A stretch of 5,421 nucleotides of DNA from a virus. Lineage: Duplodnaviria; Heunggongvirae; Uroviricota; Caudoviricetes. Both the position numbers and the translations under genes were made by a program. Within the stretch, counting starts at the first letter, position 1. Each line of letters opens with the position of its first letter. Under the pieces are notes generated by a model, which saw nothing but the letters and a program-made list of their open reading frames with translations, did not search any database and was not told where the DNA came from. Where the stretch lies: the IMG/VR virus record IMGVR_UViG_3300029214_000137; one strand, 5' to 3'. Shown here piece by piece: positions 317-5,093 of this stretch.

Positions 317-440
317 TTTGTTCTCCACGTATATGCGCTGCACCGCGCTGAATTCGGGTAAAAGAAAGCCCTCACCGTCCGGCGATTATTGAGTCAATTA
401 CATTTCCATGAATGCCCCCGTAGGGGCGGTTAGTTTCTCC

Positions 441-529
441 ACAAAACAGAGAAGAACACCTGCGGTGGCAGCCGCCCGGATGGATTGGGTTATGAGCTCG
501 TCGTCCGGTGATGCTCTTCTCTGTTTTGT
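441..529. repeat. 15-bp perfect inverted repeat (ACAAAACAGAGAAGA at 441-455 / TCTTCTCTGTTTTGT at 515-529) flanking a 59-bp GC-rich spacer
   Basis: Arms are exact reverse complements and cannot be extended at either end. The spacer itself has internal complementarity (CCGGA 476-480 / TCCGG 504-508; palindromic GAGCTC at 495-500). Function unknown. Confidence 0.6.
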
Positions 530-573
530 AAAAAGGACGGTACCAGCCGGAAGCAAGGGTACAAGCTGGTACC
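530..573 (-). terminator. Candidate intrinsic terminator for leftward transcription (9-bp stem, 17-nt loop, U-tract)
   Basis: GGTACCAGC (539-547) and GCTGGTACC (565-573) are exact reverse complements. On the minus strand the hairpin is followed by GUCC then UUUUUA (complement of 529-534). The U-tract is offset 4 nt from the stem, so this is a weak call. Confidence 0.3.
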
Positions 574-671: not shown

Positions 672-1013
672 ATGAACCAGTTTTATGTTCACGTTCGTCT
701 GTTTGAAGCAACAGCCGAACAGACCAAAAAATTTGAAGAATTAATGCTTAACTTTCTGTACCAGAAAACAATCAAAGAGTCTGACGATAGCTGCTGCAGA
801 CTGATTCCAGAGGGATATATCCTCAAAAGCACAATGAACTGCCAACAAATCCTTGATCAAACTTTTTCCATTGCTAACAGTGCTGGTGTTGACGCAAATA
901 TATTTGTCTGCAAATTTGAACAAAGCGCATGCTTACTTCCGTCTGCTTCCTTAGTTGGCAACGATTTTGTTCATCACGATCTTACGCCTAAGCCCATCAA
1001 GCTCGATTCTTAA
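672..1013 (+). CDS. Hypothetical protein (113 aa), rightward-oriented orphan gene embedded in the leftward early region
   Basis: ATG at 672 preceded by AAGGAA (661-666). In frame with the longer track ORF 636-1013, but the 636 ATG lies inside the putative -10. Enteric-typical codon usage, AT-rich (~40% GC by eye). Product MNQFYVHVRLFEATAEQTKKFEELMLNFLYQ... not recognised. Its last 63 bp overlap the convergent 951-1259 gene, which lowers confidence. Confidence 0.5.
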   Translation: MNQFYVHVRLFEATAEQTKKFEELMLNFLYQKTIKESDDSCCRLIPEGYILKSTMNCQQILDQTFSIANSAGVDANIFVCKFEQSACLLPSASLVGNDFVHHDLTPKPIKLDS

Positions 1014-1259: not shown

Positions 1260-1356
1260 CTATTCTCTCCACTGAAATCATCCGCTAACGAATCATCCCG
1301 GTCTTCGTACGTACCAGGCGGGCTACTTCGTGGGCGTCCTGCCTGTTCGTTGTTTT

Positions 1357-1412
1357 AACACCTTTAAGTTGTAATTTAGTTGTGGTTTTGAATGTTGTCA
1401 ACAACTTTATGT
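1357..1412 (-). promoter_or_regulatory. OL/PL-like region: leftward promoter with consensus -35 embedded in repressor operator repeats
   Basis: On the minus strand: -35 TTGACA (plus coords 1396-1401), 17-bp spacer, -10 TAAATT (plus coords 1373-1378). Operator-like heptamer ACAACTT/AAGTTGT at 1366-1372 and 1401-1407, plus variant ATGTTGT at 1392-1398, forming the inverted repeat ATGTTGT-ca-ACAACTT over the -35. The 12-mer ACAACTTTATGT (1401-1412) is identical to 3054-3065 in OR; the 16-mer AACACCTTTAAGTTGT (1357-1372) matches OR 3077-3092 at 14/16. Confidence 0.6.
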
Positions 1413-1464
1413 GGTTTGAACGAGTGGCCAAGGAGTGCAAGGATTATCAAAAAAAGGAGGTTGT

Positions 1465-2355
1465 ATGGAAGACGCGCTTTACGCTTTTAATTACACACAG
1501 AACCGGGACAAGTTATTTGCTAACTTGATTAGCATCATTGATGGAATCATTGCAGATGGAGTTGTCCGTGAAGAGGAGGTTCTTTACTTAGATACATGGT
1601 TACTTGAAGCAAAGCAGATTATCAATAATGGAGTTATAAAAAGTCTATCTGCACGGGTGTCGGATATTCTTGCGGATGGAATAATCACATCAGAAGAACG
1701 TGATGACCTTAAAAATAGCCTTCTCCAAATACAGAGGGAAATTCTTGATATCCCTGAAATTGATTTTTACTCCAAGGATGTAGATGTCCATTTACTTAAT
1801 GGACTATGTAAAGGATTAATTGCTGATCGGAACTTAACTCAAGAAGAAATAAGATATCTTAATTGGTGGCTTGAGCAAAATGGAGCTTTGAAGAACAACT
1901 ACCCAGGAAAAAAACTTTATGCACTTGTAAAGGAAATTCTTAAAGATGGTGTTATTACTGAAGATGAGAGTTTAACTCTACATAAGGCATTAGTAGACTT
2001 CACAGGATGTGACTTGGAAAGTGGGGTGGTGGATGGTTTGGCGACCAGGCTGCCTATTGATGTAGAGGCTTCGATAGAGTTAGAGGGTAAAACCTATTGT
2101 CTTACAGGCACTTTTGTTGCAGGAAAGAGAGCCGTAGTTGAAAATTTGATTAAAAATGCTGGTGGGAACATCAGTAGTGGAATTACTCAACAGTTGGATT
2201 TTTTAGTAATTGGGACGCTTTCCTCCCGTGATTGGAAATTCTCTAGTCACGGAAGGAAGATCGAAAAGGCTATATCTTATAGAGATGATAATGGTGCAAA
2301 ACTTAAAATTATTTCTGAAGAAATGCTTTTCGATGCATTACCAAGTTCGCGATGA
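1465..2355 (+). CDS. TerB-like repeat / BRCT-domain protein (296 aa); candidate prophage cargo (exclusion/defence) gene at the rex-equivalent site
   Basis: ATG at 1465 with AAGGAGG (1454-1460) 4 nt upstream; the track's longer ORF starts at a GTG at 1435 with no RBS. N-terminal two-thirds hold four ~22-aa repeats with the motif [IL]-A-D-G-x-[IV]-x-x-E-E (IADGVVREEEVLYL, LADGIITSEERDDL, IADRNLTQEEIRYL, LKDGVITEDESLTL), as in TerB/DjlA-N helical hairpins. The C-terminal ~85 aa (GKTYCLTGTF...QLDFLVIGT...KLKIISEEMLFDAL) follow the BRCT pattern of the LigA C-terminus (GKT-x-V-LTG ... D-x-L-V-x-G ... K-A). ~38% GC in a sampled 60-nt stretch versus ~58% in the Dam gene. Confidence 0.8.
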   Translation: MEDALYAFNYTQNRDKLFANLISIIDGIIADGVVREEEVLYLDTWLLEAKQIINNGVIKSLSARVSDILADGIITSEERDDLKNSLLQIQREILDIPEIDFYSKDVDVHLLNGLCKGLIADRNLTQEEIRYLNWWLEQNGALKNNYPGKKLYALVKEILKDGVITEDESLTLHKALVDFTGCDLESGVVDGLATRLPIDVEASIELEGKTYCLTGTFVAGKRAVVENLIKNAGGNISSGITQQLDFLVIGTLSSRDWKFSSHGRKIEKAISYRDDNGAKLKIISEEMLFDALPSSR

Positions 2356-3024
2356 CCAGAATACCCTACCTATAACATGAATTCTGGCTCGTCTATCTTC
2401 AAAGGTAAGTATTTCATCTGGGTACTCATCTTTGTTGAAGCTTCTAAGAATCAAGCCACCGTCAGGTAAGTTGATAAGTATTTTAACCCTTAGCAATACA
2501 CCATCTCGTACGGCATAAAGATCGCCATCACGAATAGGAACGGTTTGAGAAATATCAACGGCAACAAGATCTCCATTATTGAGAACCGGTAATAAACTGT
2601 TCCCCCATATTTTTACGATCTTGGCATTAGATGCACATACGCCAGATTTTCTCAAATCTGCTCTTCTTAACGGAAACCAGTCAATAGCTGATTCAACTAT
2701 TTCAGCCAGACATCCGTTACCTGCCGATAACTCGACATCTAAAACAGGAATGTTTACGAAAATATCGGGGTCTAATGCGGTGCTTTCTGCTTCTTTTACA
2801 ACAAGATCAGGTATGGATGCGTTGTCTTCAATACCAAGTTGTAACCACTTTTGTGATACACCTAAAACTTTTGCAATTTCTTTAATTTTGCGCGGTTGTA
2901 GAGTTTCGCCATTCTCTATTTTGGCTACAGATTGTTGTGAAAGTCCAATTTTTTCAGCTAGTTGAGCTTGGCTCATGCCAGCTTTCTCTCTACCTATCTT
3001 TAATCGTTCTGCCAGTGTTTTCAC
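2338..3024 (-). CDS. cI: Phage immunity repressor, cI-like (N-terminal XRE-type HTH + C-terminal S24 LexA-like autopeptidase domain), 228 aa
   Basis: GTG start at 3024-3022 with AGAGGGA 6 nt upstream on the minus strand. N-terminus MKTLAERLKIGREKAGMSQAQLAEKIGLSQQSVAKIENGET is a classic HTH_XRE. C-terminal half has an Ala-Gly cleavage site (ELSAGNG), a Ser in G-N-S-L and a Lys in LLRVKIL, consistent with the S24 Ser/Lys dyad, and ends ...IGRVFWSSRTW as in P22 C2/lambda cI-type repressors. Flanked by operator clusters on both sides. Confidence 0.9.
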   Translation of the reverse strand: MKTLAERLKIGREKAGMSQAQLAEKIGLSQQSVAKIENGETLQPRKIKEIAKVLGVSQKWLQLGIEDNASIPDLVVKEAESTALDPDIFVNIPVLDVELSAGNGCLAEIVESAIDWFPLRRADLRKSGVCASNAKIVKIWGNSLLPVLNNGDLVAVDISQTVPIRDGDLYAVRDGVLLRVKILINLPDGGLILRSFNKDEYPDEILTFEDRRARIHVIGRVFWSSRTW

Positions 3025-3049
3025 AACATATCCCTCTCTTTTTTGATGA

Positions 3050-3140
3050 GGTTACAACTTTATGTTTTAGCTTTCCAACACCTAAAAGTTGTGATAAAAG
3101 TTGTTAATGTTGTATTCTTGCAACTCGTAACAACTTAACT
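3050..3140. promoter_or_regulatory. OR-like operator cluster with divergent PR (to cro) and PRM (to cI) promoters; exact promoter hexamers not resolved
   Basis: Heptamer ACAACTT/AAGTTGT occurs four times in ~85 bp (3054-3060, 3086-3092, 3098-3104, 3130-3136), plus variant ATGTTGT at 3107-3113. Shares the 12-mer ACAACTTTATGT and the 16-mer AACACCTAAAAGTTGT with OL. Lies between divergent repressor and cro starts (3024 and 3160). No strong -10/-35 pair could be picked by eye. Confidence 0.65.
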
Positions 3141-3159
3141 ACCAAAAAAGGAGAAAGCT

Positions 3160-3408
3160 ATGACACCTGAGCAATTAGCCTTATCGGAGGCAATCGCTCT
3201 GGCTGGTGGTCAATCAGAATTGGCTCGGAAGCTCACAGCCAGCAGCGGTCATTTAGTAAAGCAACAACATGTCTGGAACTGGTTGAACAGAGAAAAGCGT
3301 CCCCCTGCAAAGCTCTCGATATTCATTGAAAAGACCACTGGCATATCAAAAGAAAAATTACGTCCAGATATTTTTCAAAAGATTAAAGATTCATCAGATG
3401 AAAAGTAA
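3160..3408 (+). CDS. cro: Cro-like small HTH regulator (YdaS/Cro family), 82 aa
   Basis: ATG at 3160 with AAAGGAG (3147-3153). Divergent from the repressor across the operator cluster. Product MTPEQLALSEAIALAGGQSELARKL...WNWLNREKRPPAKLSIFIEKTTGISKEKLRPDIF has the YdaS/Cro-type HTH pattern (TG-x-S-x-E-x-LRPD). Confidence 0.85.
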   Translation: MTPEQLALSEAIALAGGQSELARKLTASSGHLVKQQHVWNWLNREKRPPAKLSIFIEKTTGISKEKLRPDIFQKIKDSSDEK

Positions 3409-4116: not shown

Positions 4117-4770
4117 ATGAGTAATAAATATTGGCAGGCGCTGGTGGAACTGCGGAACAAACCAGCCCATGAACTGAAGGAAGTGGGCGATCAGTGGCGC
4201 ACGCCGGACAACATTTTCTGGGGAATTAACACCCTGTTTGGCCCGTTTGTTCTGGATCTGTTCACTGACGGTGATAACGCCAAATGTGCCGCGTATTACA
4301 CGGCGGAAGACAACGCGCTGGCGCATGACTGGTCAGAACGTCTTGCGGAGCTTAAAGGTGCTGCCTTTGGTAATCCCCCATACAGCCGCGCCAGTCAGCA
4401 TGAGGGGCAATACATCACCGGCATGCGTTACATCATGAAGCATGCCAGTGCCATGCGTGATAAAGGCGGGCGCTATGTTTTCCTGATCAAAGCGGCCACC
4501 AGCGAAGTGTGGTGGCCGGAAGATGCAGATCATATTGCTTTTATTCGCGGGCGTATTGGTTTTGAACTACCTGCCTGGTTTATACCGAAGGACGAGAAGC
4601 AGGTGCCGACAGGTGCTTTCTTCGCTGGTGCCATTGCTGTTTTCGACAAGACCTGGAAGGGATCGGCAATCAGCTACATCGGGCGCGATGAACTTGAGGC
4701 ATGTGGTGAGGCCTTTCTGGCGCAGGTTCGCCAGCAGGCGGAAAAACTGGTCAGGGAGATGGCGGCATGA
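4117..4770 (+). CDS. Phage Dam-type DNA N6-adenine methyltransferase (217 aa)
   Basis: ATG at 4117 preceded by GGGGG (4108-4112); the track ORF begins at an in-frame GTG at 4084. Product has the catalytic NPPY motif (AAFGNPPYSRA) and an N-terminal W-R-T-P-D-x-x-F ... Y-Y-T-A-E-D-N-A-L layout typical of phage Dam (Pfam Dam-like) enzymes of lambdoid nin regions. ~58% GC in a sampled stretch. Confidence 0.85.
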   Translation: MSNKYWQALVELRNKPAHELKEVGDQWRTPDNIFWGINTLFGPFVLDLFTDGDNAKCAAYYTAEDNALAHDWSERLAELKGAAFGNPPYSRASQHEGQYITGMRYIMKHASAMRDKGGRYVFLIKAATSEVWWPEDADHIAFIRGRIGFELPAWFIPKDEKQVPTGAFFAGAIAVFDKTWKGSAISYIGRDELEACGEAFLAQVRQQAEKLVREMAA

Positions 4771-5093
4771 CGACATTAACTCAATGCCAGCAGCAGGTGC
4801 TGGATATGCTGATTTCTTACCAGCAAGAACGTGGCTTTCCGCCAACCAATCAGGAGGTGGCAACCATGCTGGGATACCGTTCGGTGAATGCAGCGGTGGA
4901 GCATCTTCGCGCACTGGAGAAAAAAGGCGTCATCACGATAAAGCGTGGCGTGGCCCGGGGGATAACTCTTCATACCGCGGTGAAGGACGACGACAGCGAG
5001 GCGGTCGGGATTATCCGCGCACTGCTTGCCGGTGAGGAAAACGGCAGGCTGCGTGCAGCCCACTGGTTACATGAGAGGGGCCTGAAAGTATGA
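4767..5093 (+). CDS. LexA N-terminal DNA-binding-domain protein without peptidase domain (108 aa)
   Basis: ATG at 4767 overlaps the Dam stop (ATGA at 4767-4770). Product MTTLTQCQQQVLDMLISYQQERGFPPTNQEVATMLGYRSVNAAVEHLRALEKKGVITIKRGVARGITL parallels the LexA winged-helix domain (LexA: ...LTARQQEVFDLI...[46 protein letters not shown]). No Ala-Gly site or S24 domain follows. Confidence 0.7.
   Translation: MTTLTQCQQQVLDMLISYQQERGFPPTNQEVATMLGYRSVNAAVEHLRALEKKGVITIKRGVARGITLHTAVKDDDSEAVGIIRALLAGEENGRLRAAHWLHERGLKV

What the first reader, a model, noticed from the sequence alone, without database searches (positions are those of the whole stretch)
2338..2355. Convergent 18-bp overlap between the repressor gene and the cargo gene 3' ends
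The repressor stop (complement of 2338-2340) and the cargo stop (2353-2355) put the two coding regions tail-to-tail with an 18-bp overlap. A weak hairpin (CCAGAAT 2356-2362 / ATTCTGG 2381-2387, followed by a C/T-rich run) lies just beyond the cargo stop, inside the repressor 3' coding region. Cargo transcription would therefore read antisense into the repressor mRNA and vice versa, a set-up that could couple cargo expression to lysogenic state by transcriptional interference.
Basis: partly seen in the sequence, partly recalled or inferred. Interest (0 to 1): 0.45.

Follow-up and report, generated by a model that had tools for sequence, protein, structure and literature searches.

The report
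Tail-to-tail overlap of prophage repressor and BRCT gene
In an E. coli prophage the repressor gene and a neighbouring BRCT-domain gene end inside each other by 18 bases; the overlap is real and always present in relatives, but its length drifts with silent codon changes and the nearby hairpin is not conserved, so it looks like an ordinary compact gene junction, not a regulatory device.

Summary
The BRCT-domain gene (1465-2355, +) and the CI-like HTH/S24 repressor gene (3024-2338, -) overlap by 18 bp, and RefSeq annotates a 99.3% identical E. coli prophage the same way.

In all 96 related loci examined, from E. coli to Serratia, Hafnia, Providencia and Proteus, the two genes lie tail-to-tail and overlap by 9, 15 or 18 bp. 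The two frames are in exact codon register. The BRCT stop (TGA) is the complement of whichever serine codon in the repressor's last residues (W-S-S-R-S/T-W) happens to be TCA. Near-silent changes in the repressor therefore set the overlap length.

The hairpin (2356-2387) keeps all 7 pairs in only 6 of 34 distinct sequences. It shows no covariation, has no U-tract, and is not a terminator.

A simpler coupling to lysogeny is visible, though. An OL operator abuts a weak promoter for the BRCT gene in the same geometry as the OR operator abuts the repressor's own promoter. Both genes are therefore probably made in the lysogen.

Verdict: a real, conserved, ordinary junction of modest interest.

The parts
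1465..2355 (+). BRCT-domain 'cargo' gene, 296 aa: two helical acidic repeat units followed by a C-terminal BRCT domain
   Evidence: ORF; Pfam BRCT E 1.3e-6; phrog_3989 E 2.9e-128; 344 homologues; model with BRCT fold resembling RFC1 and LigA BRCT
2338..3024 (-). CI-like repressor gene, 228 aa, HTH plus S24 self-cleaving peptidase domain
   Evidence: ORF; HTH_3 and Peptidase_S24; phrog_4 transcriptional repressor E 1.1e-53
2338..2355 (.). 18-bp tail-to-tail overlap TTACCAAGTTCGCGATGA. Plus strand reads L P S S R stop; minus strand reads S S R T W stop. Codons are in exact register.
   Evidence: relatives have 9, 15 or 18 bp; the codon table explains the lengths
2356..2387 (+). Weak hairpin (7-bp stem, 18-nt loop) inside the repressor's 3' coding region; not conserved and not a terminator
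1359..1373 (.). OL operator-like site ACACCTTTAAGTTGT, lying over the -10 of the leftward PL promoter
   Evidence: repeat shared with OR (family D2); conserved in all lineages
1373..1401 (-). Predicted PL promoter: TTGACA, 17 nt, TAAATT (10 of 12 matches), driving the early-left operon away from the cassette
   Evidence: both hexamers conserved in relatives
1401..1415 (.). OL operator-like site ACAACTTTATGTGGT, between the PL -35 and the putative -35 of the BRCT gene promoter
   Evidence: exact 12-mer shared with OR (family D11); invariant across lineages
1416..1444 (+). Putative BRCT gene promoter: -35 TTGAAC (1416-1421), 17-nt spacer, extended -10 TGcAAGGAT (1436-1444). Inferred, not mapped.
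   Evidence: the hexamers and the 17-nt spacing are conserved while the spacer sequence varies; too weak for the consensus scan
3049..3078 (-). Putative repressor maintenance promoter (PRM-like): -35 TTGGAA (3078..3073), 18-nt spacer, -10 TAACCT (3054..3049). Inferred.
   Evidence: conserved block downstream of the operator in all lineages
3078..3092 (.). OR operator-like site ACACCTAAAAGTTGT. It abuts the PRM-like -35 and overlaps the -35 of the rightward promoter.
3054..3068 (.). OR operator-like site ACAACTTTATGTTTT inside the PRM-like spacer and -10, in an OR3-like position
3089..3118 (+). Putative PR promoter for the cro-like gene: TTGTGA, 18 nt, TATTCT (TATAAT in most relatives)
   Evidence: reading; not found by the scan
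3160..3408 (+). Cro-like gene (YdaS family), third member of the conserved cassette
   Evidence: Pfam YdaS_toxin E 7.8e-15; present in all related loci

Best explanation
The 18-bp overlap is the compact 3' junction of two genes in a conserved three-gene immunity cassette: BRCT gene, CI-like repressor and Cro-like gene. The cassette lies between the OL and OR operator regions of e14-type lambdoid prophages. The two reading frames meet in exact codon register. The repressor's stop (TAA or TAG) is the complement of the BRCT protein's penultimate Leu codon. The BRCT stop (TGA) is the complement of a TCA serine codon in the repressor's invariant C-terminus W-S-S-R-S/T-W. Which serine is spelled TCA decides whether the overlap is 9, 15 or 18 bp. 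In the E. coli lineage the last Ser became Thr (ACT) and the next Ser is TCG, so the BRCT frame runs on to the third. The overlap persists because both protein ends are constrained and nothing favours a spacer. Its length drifts neutrally, and the hairpin is a by-product of repressor codons. These steps are shown. The following are inferred. Both genes are expressed in the lysogen from weak promoters that face each other about 1.6 kb apart. Each promoter has an operator centred near -43, as OR2 is at lambda PRM, so repressor occupancy permits or activates both. After induction both lose activity, while PL and PR fire outwards. With no intrinsic terminator, polymerases that pass a stop codon lose their ribosomes. 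They are probably stopped within a few hundred nucleotides by Rho on the C-rich, G-poor antisense RNA, and occasionally by head-on collisions. Some mutual damping is likely, but it is a side effect and not the way the cargo is tied to lysogeny.
For: A tail-to-tail overlap occurs in 96 of 96 loci: 51 with 9 bp, 8 with 15 bp, 29 with 18 bp and 2 with BRCT pseudogenes; Hafnia and Providencia have 15 bp and Proteus 18 bp. Overlap length follows the position of the last TCA Ser codon without exception. The hairpin shows 70% paired cells, zero covariation, and full pairing in 6 of 34 sequences. Synonymous diversity is flat along both genes (mean 0.55-0.56); the repressor's last 12 codons score 0.29-0.83. 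No terminator-like site lies at or near the junction on either strand. Operator-like sites at OL (1359-1373, 1401-1415) and OR (3054-3068, 3078-3092) bracket the gene pair. The block operator, TTGAWY, 17 nt, TGYAAGGAT upstream of the BRCT gene is conserved down to 55-60% protein identity while the spacer sequence varies. It mirrors operator, T(T)GGAA, spacer, TAAYCT upstream of the repressor. The antisense RNAs are C-rich: C/G is 1.7 in the first 78 nt after the BRCT stop, and 1.6-2.0 rising to 3.4 after the repressor stop. Distant BRCT homologues lie downstream of cI on the same strand, in the annotated lysogenic operon of phage K139 (cI-orf2-glo-int) and in locus L097. A review cites K139 Orf2 for superinfection immunity (PMC7997343).
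Against: No transcript data were available, so promoters, start sites and 3' ends are all predicted. The putative BRCT promoter is weak (7 of 12 hexamer matches plus a TG) and the consensus scan missed it. An operator touching a -35 could repress and need not activate; the argument rests on the parallel with the repressor's own promoter. Universal retention of an overlap without any spacer or terminator is also what selection for convergent read-through would produce. Many of the 96 loci are near-identical; only 34 junction sequences are distinct.
Confidence: 0.6

Rival explanations
1. Convergent transcription without a terminator is the selected feature. Polymerases from the repressor promoter and the cargo promoter collide, or their RNAs pair. 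Expression of one gene is then set by the activity of the other, and cargo level tracks the lysogenic state. This would resemble staphylococcal phage 80alpha, where the cI promoter damps the antisense Pith promoter.
For: There is no intrinsic terminator on either strand, and the overlap is kept in 96 of 96 loci with never a spacer. A tested precedent exists in another phage lysogeny module (PMC11087260). Convergent-promoter interference is established for phage 186 (PMC5001618, abstract only).
Against: Overlap length and hairpin are not conserved. No synonymous constraint suggests an RNA element. The two promoters appear to respond to the repressor in the same direction, so interference could not make the two states mutually exclusive. 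The predicted promoters are about 1.6 kb apart and weak, which limits collisions. BRCT homologues work co-directionally with cI elsewhere.
Confidence: 0.2
2. The BRCT gene is repressed in the lysogen because the operator at 1401-1415 blocks its promoter, and it fires on induction or infection. Its read-through transcript then runs antisense through the repressor gene into OR and helps shut off repressor synthesis, committing the phage to lytic growth. This would be analogous in logic to lambda PRE running antisense through cro.
For: The operator directly abuts the putative -35. No terminator protects the repressor gene from read-through.
Against: The same operator-to-promoter geometry occurs at the repressor's own promoter, which must work with the operator occupied. 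The -35 and -10 are weak, as expected of an activator-dependent promoter. The K139 homologue belongs to the annotated lysogenic operon. RNA after the BRCT stop is C-rich and untranslated, so Rho should limit it.
Confidence: 0.1
3. The complementary 3' ends form an RNA duplex that RNase III or another nuclease cuts. This would couple decay of the two mRNAs and fix their ratio.
For: The transcripts must share at least 9-18 complementary nucleotides, and far more if they read through.
Against: A 9-bp minimum overlap is too short for RNase III. Any longer duplex depends on read-through that Rho probably curtails. No conserved element marks the site. In the 80alpha precedent, RNase III was not the main factor (PMC11087260).
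Confidence: 0.05

Closest known systems
Convergent overlapping gene pairs formed by stop-codon loss (general property of prokaryotic genomes; e.g. PMC2478687, PMC4161906, listed but not read)
   Same: Short 3'-3' overlap. The different lengths arise because a stop codon is lost and the frame runs to the next in-frame stop. Here a TGA is lost when the complementary Ser codon TCA changes.
   Different: This junction is unusually stable, with 96 of 96 loci across several families of Enterobacterales. It lies inside a phage immunity region, so both partners sit between matching operator sets.
Phage 80alpha 'noncontiguous operon' cI-tha with antisense ith (Rostol et al. 2024, PMC11087260)
   Same: A lysogeny module in which a repressor-promoter transcript and an oppositely oriented gene overlap. 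Head-on transcription is proposed there to link expression to lysogenic versus lytic state.
   Different: In 80alpha the antisense gene is nested within the cI operon, has a constitutive promoter and is wholly covered by the cI transcript. Here the genes are end to end, each with its own operator-linked promoter, and no expression data exist.
Face-to-face lytic and lysogenic promoters of coliphage 186 (pR/pL) and P2 (PMC5001618; details from my own knowledge of Callen et al. 2004)
   Same: Convergent transcription units in a temperate phage switch, with no terminator between them.
   Different: In 186 the promoters are tens of base pairs apart, one is strong and one weak, and interference acts at the promoter. 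Here the predicted promoters are about 1.6 kb apart, both weak, and both probably lysogenic.
Lambda cI-rexA-rexB and Vibrio phage K139 cI-orf2-glo-int lysogenic operons
   Same: An accessory gene sits in the immunity region next to the repressor gene and is expressed in the lysogen. K139 orf2 is a true homologue of the BRCT gene (33% identity over 95% of the length).
   Different: Those genes are co-transcribed with cI on the same strand. Here the gene is inverted, overlaps the end of cI and appears to have its own promoter at OL. The K139 CI belongs to a different repressor family.

Membership tests
Intrinsic (Rho-independent) terminator, possibly bidirectional | G+C-rich stem with a short loop of 3-8 nt | tested here: not met
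   7-bp stem with 3 G-C pairs and an 18-nt loop; not reported by the terminator scan
Intrinsic (Rho-independent) terminator, possibly bidirectional | Run of U immediately after the stem | tested here: not met
   The tail is CUCGUCUAUCUUC, mixed C and U with no U-run
Intrinsic (Rho-independent) terminator, possibly bidirectional | Structure conserved, with compensatory changes, in relatives | tested here: not met
   No pair has a change on both sides; 6 of 7 pairs vary only by breaking; 70% of cells paired
Convergent-promoter transcriptional interference switch (186 pR/pL type) | Two promoters face each other with overlapping transcription units and no terminator between | tested here: inconclusive
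   Genes converge and no terminator was found. Promoters are predicted from conserved motifs only.
Convergent-promoter transcriptional interference switch (186 pR/pL type) | Activity of one promoter measurably lowers the other | not testable with these tools
Convergent-promoter transcriptional interference switch (186 pR/pL type) | The two promoters belong to opposite developmental states (lytic versus lysogenic) | tested here: not met
   Both predicted promoters have the same operator geometry and so probably belong to the same lysogenic state. This rests on inference.
Noncontiguous operon of a lysogeny module (80alpha cI-tha/ith) | Antisense gene nested inside an operon driven by the cI promoter | tested here: not met
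   The BRCT gene follows the end of cI. The next leftward genes have their own PL promoter at 1373-1401.
Noncontiguous operon of a lysogeny module (80alpha cI-tha/ith) | Reciprocal change of sense and antisense transcripts on induction | not testable with these tools
   No RNA data available
Convergent overlapping genes arising by stop-codon loss | Both ORFs are genuine conserved genes | tested here: met
   Domain hits; 344 and 120 homologues; PGAP annotation
Convergent overlapping genes arising by stop-codon loss | Longer overlaps derive from shorter ones by loss of a stop and extension to the next in-frame stop | tested here: met
   The 9-, 15- and 18-bp states follow the position of the last TCA codon in the repressor tail in every locus
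Lysogen-expressed accessory gene of an immunity region (rexAB or K139 orf2 type) | Located between OL and OR beside the repressor gene | tested here: met
   Operator-like repeats at 1359-1415 and 3054-3092 bracket both genes; the linkage is conserved
Lysogen-expressed accessory gene of an immunity region (rexAB or K139 orf2 type) | Transcribed in the lysogen | not testable with these tools
   Only inferred from promoter geometry and from the K139 record's annotated lysogenic operon

The most novel reading that the evidence does not exclude
The absence of any terminator between two repressor-dependent promoters that face each other is itself selected. Head-on transcription would then act as a collision-based governor. 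It would cap repressor synthesis, keep the BRCT protein in a fixed ratio to the repressor, and stop repressor-promoter transcripts from running through OL into the early-left (excision and recombination) operon. This would be an insulator made of opposing transcription in place of a terminator such as lambda's t-imm.
Probability: 0.12. Interest if true: 0.55.

Novelty: new member of a known kind. Interest (0 to 1): 0.25.

Why it matters
As a gene junction it matters little. Short convergent overlaps are common, and this one is already annotated in RefSeq genomes. Its value is as a clean worked example: a silent codon choice in one gene (which serine is TCA) sets the stop, and hence the C-terminal tail, of the gene on the other strand. 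It also shows that the BRCT gene is an integral, inseparable part of one immunity cassette spread through Enterobacterales. If the opposing promoters were shown to regulate each other, the cassette would join phage 186 and 80alpha as a third natural design using head-on transcription in a lysis-lysogeny module. It would be the first in which both promoters belong to the lysogenic state.

Tried and rejected
Transcript ends and strand-specific depth could not be examined.

2. Hairpin as terminator or conserved RNA. Rejected by the terminator scan, pair counts in 34 relatives and Rfam (no family near the junction).

3. Hidden RNA element near the junction. Synonymous-site diversity along both genes shows no dip at the 3' ends beyond the doubly coding bases. 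A dip at repressor codons 201-210 lies in a run of two-fold-degenerate D/E/Y codons.

4. A repressor without the BRCT neighbour. Repressor homologues down to about 60% identity all keep it. A 50% homologue in a prophage remnant beside recQ lacks it, which is uninformative. An 80% identical repressor on a 37.7-kb E. coli plasmid record full of frameshifts was not usable.

5. Phage genome collection by DNA. Only 40-60-bp matches left of OL. By protein, only distant homologues turned up: K139-type Vibrio phages, and Pseudomonas phages with a shorter form.

6. Function of the BRCT protein. The AlphaFold model is mediocre (pLDDT 64.6). Only the BRCT domain finds structural relatives, RFC1 and LigA type. 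A weak PADLOC hit to candidate PDC-S48 (E 2.2e-7, partial) does not establish membership. No paper on this gene family in prophages was found. The primary K139 paper (PMC93736) is not held.

7. Genome-wide frequency of convergent overlaps could not be computed without an annotated genome. General statements on this rest on the literature and my own knowledge.

Full report
WHAT THE WINDOW IS

The window is the early control region of an e14-type lambdoid prophage of E. coli. A 99.3% identical copy lies beside icd in strain FHI_NMBU_10. There it runs int, xis..., ymfI, a 102-aa gene, a 'BRCT domain-containing protein', an 'XRE family transcriptional regulator', a cro-like regulator, ymfL and onwards. 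Of 5,426 complete E. coli genomes, 48 carry the BRCT-plus-repressor stretch. K-12's own e14 matches only up to window position about 1355, so it holds a different immunity cassette. The cassette (about 1351-3300) is 36-41% G+C against 45-60% in the flanks.

THE OBSERVATION

- The cargo ORF runs 1465-2355 on the plus strand (296 aa). It has a Pfam BRCT hit (E 1.3e-6) and matches phrog_3989 end to end.
- The repressor ORF runs 3024-2338 on the minus strand (228 aa, HTH_3 plus Peptidase_S24).
- They share 2338-2355, TTACCAAGTTCGCGATGA, which is 18 bp. PGAP annotates the same overlap.
- The hairpin arms are at the stated coordinates.

IS THE HAIRPIN MEANINGFUL?

- It has a 7-bp stem with three G-C pairs, an 18-nt loop and a mixed C/U tail.
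- The terminator scan reports nothing at the junction on either strand.
- The 91-nt stretch folds somewhat better than shuffles (z -2.49). The RNA after the repressor stop does not (z +0.64).
- In 34 distinct junction sequences only 6 keep all seven pairs.
- On the alignment, 70% of cells pair. No pair shows a change on both sides, and six of seven pairs vary only by breaking.

The arms are the repressor's codons for V-F-W and A-R-I, and they drift at third positions. The hairpin is a by-product.

IS THE OVERLAP MEANINGFUL?

I gathered loci encoding BRCT homologues from four sources:
- a species-representative genome collection;
- public assemblies;
- 80 viral contigs;
- via more distant repressor homologues, Hafnia, Providencia and Proteus.

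Every one of 96 loci has the 227-229-aa repressor convergent with the BRCT gene, and the two always overlap. The counts are 9 bp in 51, 15 bp in 8 and 18 bp in 29. Two further loci have a BRCT gene broken by a premature stop. Hafnia and Providencia have 15 bp and Proteus 18 bp. Flanking genes differ widely, while BRCT, repressor and cro stay together. Many loci are near-identical, so the effective sample is about 30 lineages. These span 55-100% protein identity.

The two frames are in exact codon register:
- The repressor stop TAA or TAG is the complement of the BRCT Leu codon TTA or CTA.
- The repressor's Trp TGG is the complement of Pro CCA.
- The BRCT stop TGA is the complement of a Ser TCA.

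The repressor ends W-S-S-R-S/T-W in all lineages. If the last Ser is TCA the overlap is 9 bp. If it is TCT, AGC or ACG and the Ser two codons upstream is TCA, it is 15 bp. If that one is TCG and the next is TCA, it is 18 bp. The rule holds in every locus. The window's 18 bp therefore comes from a Ser-to-Thr change (TCA to ACT) in the repressor plus a TCG serine. The BRCT protein gains the tail S-S-R as a passenger effect. This is the textbook way overlaps lengthen, by stop loss.

Synonymous diversity is flat along both genes (mean 0.55-0.56). It shows no dip near the 3' ends other than the doubly coding bases. I see no sign of a selected RNA element.

WHERE DOES TRANSCRIPTION COME FROM?

Operator-like repeats (ACAAC/GTTGT motifs; an exact 12-mer at 1401-1412 and 3054-3065; a related 19-mer at 1357-1375 and 3077-3095, 84% identical) lie left of the BRCT gene and right of the repressor gene. 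Both genes therefore sit inside the immunity region.

A good leftward promoter, TTGACA-17-TAAATT, occupies 1401..1373. It is PL, pointing away from the cassette.

Between the operator at 1401-1415 and the BRCT start codon, all lineages conserve TTGAWY, then 17 nt of variable sequence, then TGYAAGGAT, then the ribosome-binding site. I read this as a weak extended -10 promoter: -35 at 1416-1421 and -10 at 1439-1444.

Upstream of the repressor gene the same design recurs on the other strand. The operator at 3078-3092 is followed by TTGGAA, a spacer that contains a further operator, and TAAYCT.

In both cases the operator centre lies about 43 nt upstream of the expected start, as OR2 does at lambda PRM (my own knowledge). 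That OR operator also covers the -35 of the rightward promoter, so the repressor's own promoter must work with it occupied. The BRCT promoter should then behave likewise. This makes the BRCT gene a lysogen-expressed gene controlled directly by the repressor. The inference is internally consistent but unmapped. Earlier notes of this scan reached the same reading; they are not independent evidence.

The premise stands. With no terminator, each polymerase that passes its stop codon transcribes the other gene's antisense strand.

The proposed purpose, tying cargo expression to lysogeny, is already met by the operator-promoter design. If both promoters belong to the same state, interference cannot create reciprocal expression.

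The untranslated antisense RNAs are C-rich and G-poor. C/G is 1.7 just after the BRCT stop. It is 1.6-2.0 rising to 3.4 after the repressor stop. That composition favours Rho, so read-through is probably short. This is inference from general knowledge of Rho.

Distant homologues show that the convergent layout is not required. In Vibrio phage K139 the homologue orf2 (33% identity, 95% coverage) lies directly downstream of cI. It is in the annotated lysogenic operon cI-orf2-glo-int, which has a mapped lysogenic start site. In a gammaproteobacterial genome (L097) a homologue follows an HTH/S24 repressor on the same strand, with a divergent cro-like gene. K139's CI belongs to another repressor family. 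The BRCT family thus goes with lysogeny modules in general and not with this particular repressor. A review cites K139 Orf2 for superinfection immunity (PMC7997343). I could not read the primary paper.

COMPARISON WITH KNOWN SYSTEMS

There the cI promoter transcribes tha and damps an antisense promoter, Pith, through head-on collisions, giving mutually exclusive states (PMC11087260). The face-to-face promoters of coliphage 186 are the classic case (PMC5001618).

The present locus differs from both:
- The genes are end to end and not nested.
- The predicted promoters are about 1.6 kb apart.
- Both promoters are weak and both probably lysogenic.

The locus fails the tested features of an intrinsic terminator. 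It meets those of an ordinary convergent overlap produced by stop-codon loss.

VERDICT

The overlap is real and strikingly stable, but ordinary in kind, and the 18-bp length is a lineage-specific accident of codon choice. The hairpin is not a feature. Transcriptional interference remains possible as a side effect (about 20% as a selected function) and needs RNA and reporter experiments. Interest is low to moderate. The more interesting object is the BRCT gene and its repressor-linked promoter, which other findings of this scan already address.

Noticed in passing
window 951-1013 (ymfI-like ORF 672-1013 + and ORF 951-1259 -): A second convergent overlap, 63 bp, between the rightward ymfI-like gene and the first gene of the leftward PL operon. 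PGAP annotates it the same way (11373-11714 + and 11652-11960 -).
   Followed up: partly
L039:2237-2962 and L040 (viral contigs, about 91% identical cassette): The BRCT gene carries a premature stop about 50 codons before its normal end, while the repressor is intact. The cargo can decay without loss of the repressor.
   Followed up: no
L120:3167-3706 and L121 (Proteus mirabilis): Shorter BRCT homologue (179 or 134 aa called), matching only residues 124-296 of the window protein. One helical repeat unit is lost, yet the gene still overlaps the repressor gene by 18 bp.
   Followed up: partly
L003 (contig labelled Pseudomonas lundensis strain I31): A complete BRCT-repressor-cro cassette, 71-77% identical at protein level to the E. 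coli one and most like the Serratia versions, lies in a genome labelled Pseudomonas. Either horizontal transfer across orders or a mislabelled or contaminated assembly.
   Followed up: no
window 400-560: Long, nearly perfect inverted repeat that folds into a large stem structure (-63.6 kcal/mol, z -2.86) in the non-coding gap left of ymfI. No Rfam family matches.
   Followed up: partly
window 4767-5093: 108-aa protein consisting only of a LexA DNA-binding domain (E 2.5e-19) with no S24 cleavage domain, between a Dam methylase gene and a RusA-like gene (RusA named).
   Followed up: no
window 1465-2352 (protein residues 119-251): Weak partial match (E 2.2e-7) to PADLOC candidate defence protein PDC-S48, covering profile positions 239-377 of 411. 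This is shared domain architecture, not membership.
   Followed up: no
L093:1691-2344 (Pseudomonas phage Lodos and relatives): Shorter (217 aa) BRCT homologues with one helical unit lie beside the integrase gene, not beside a repressor, in several Pseudomonas phages.
   Followed up: no
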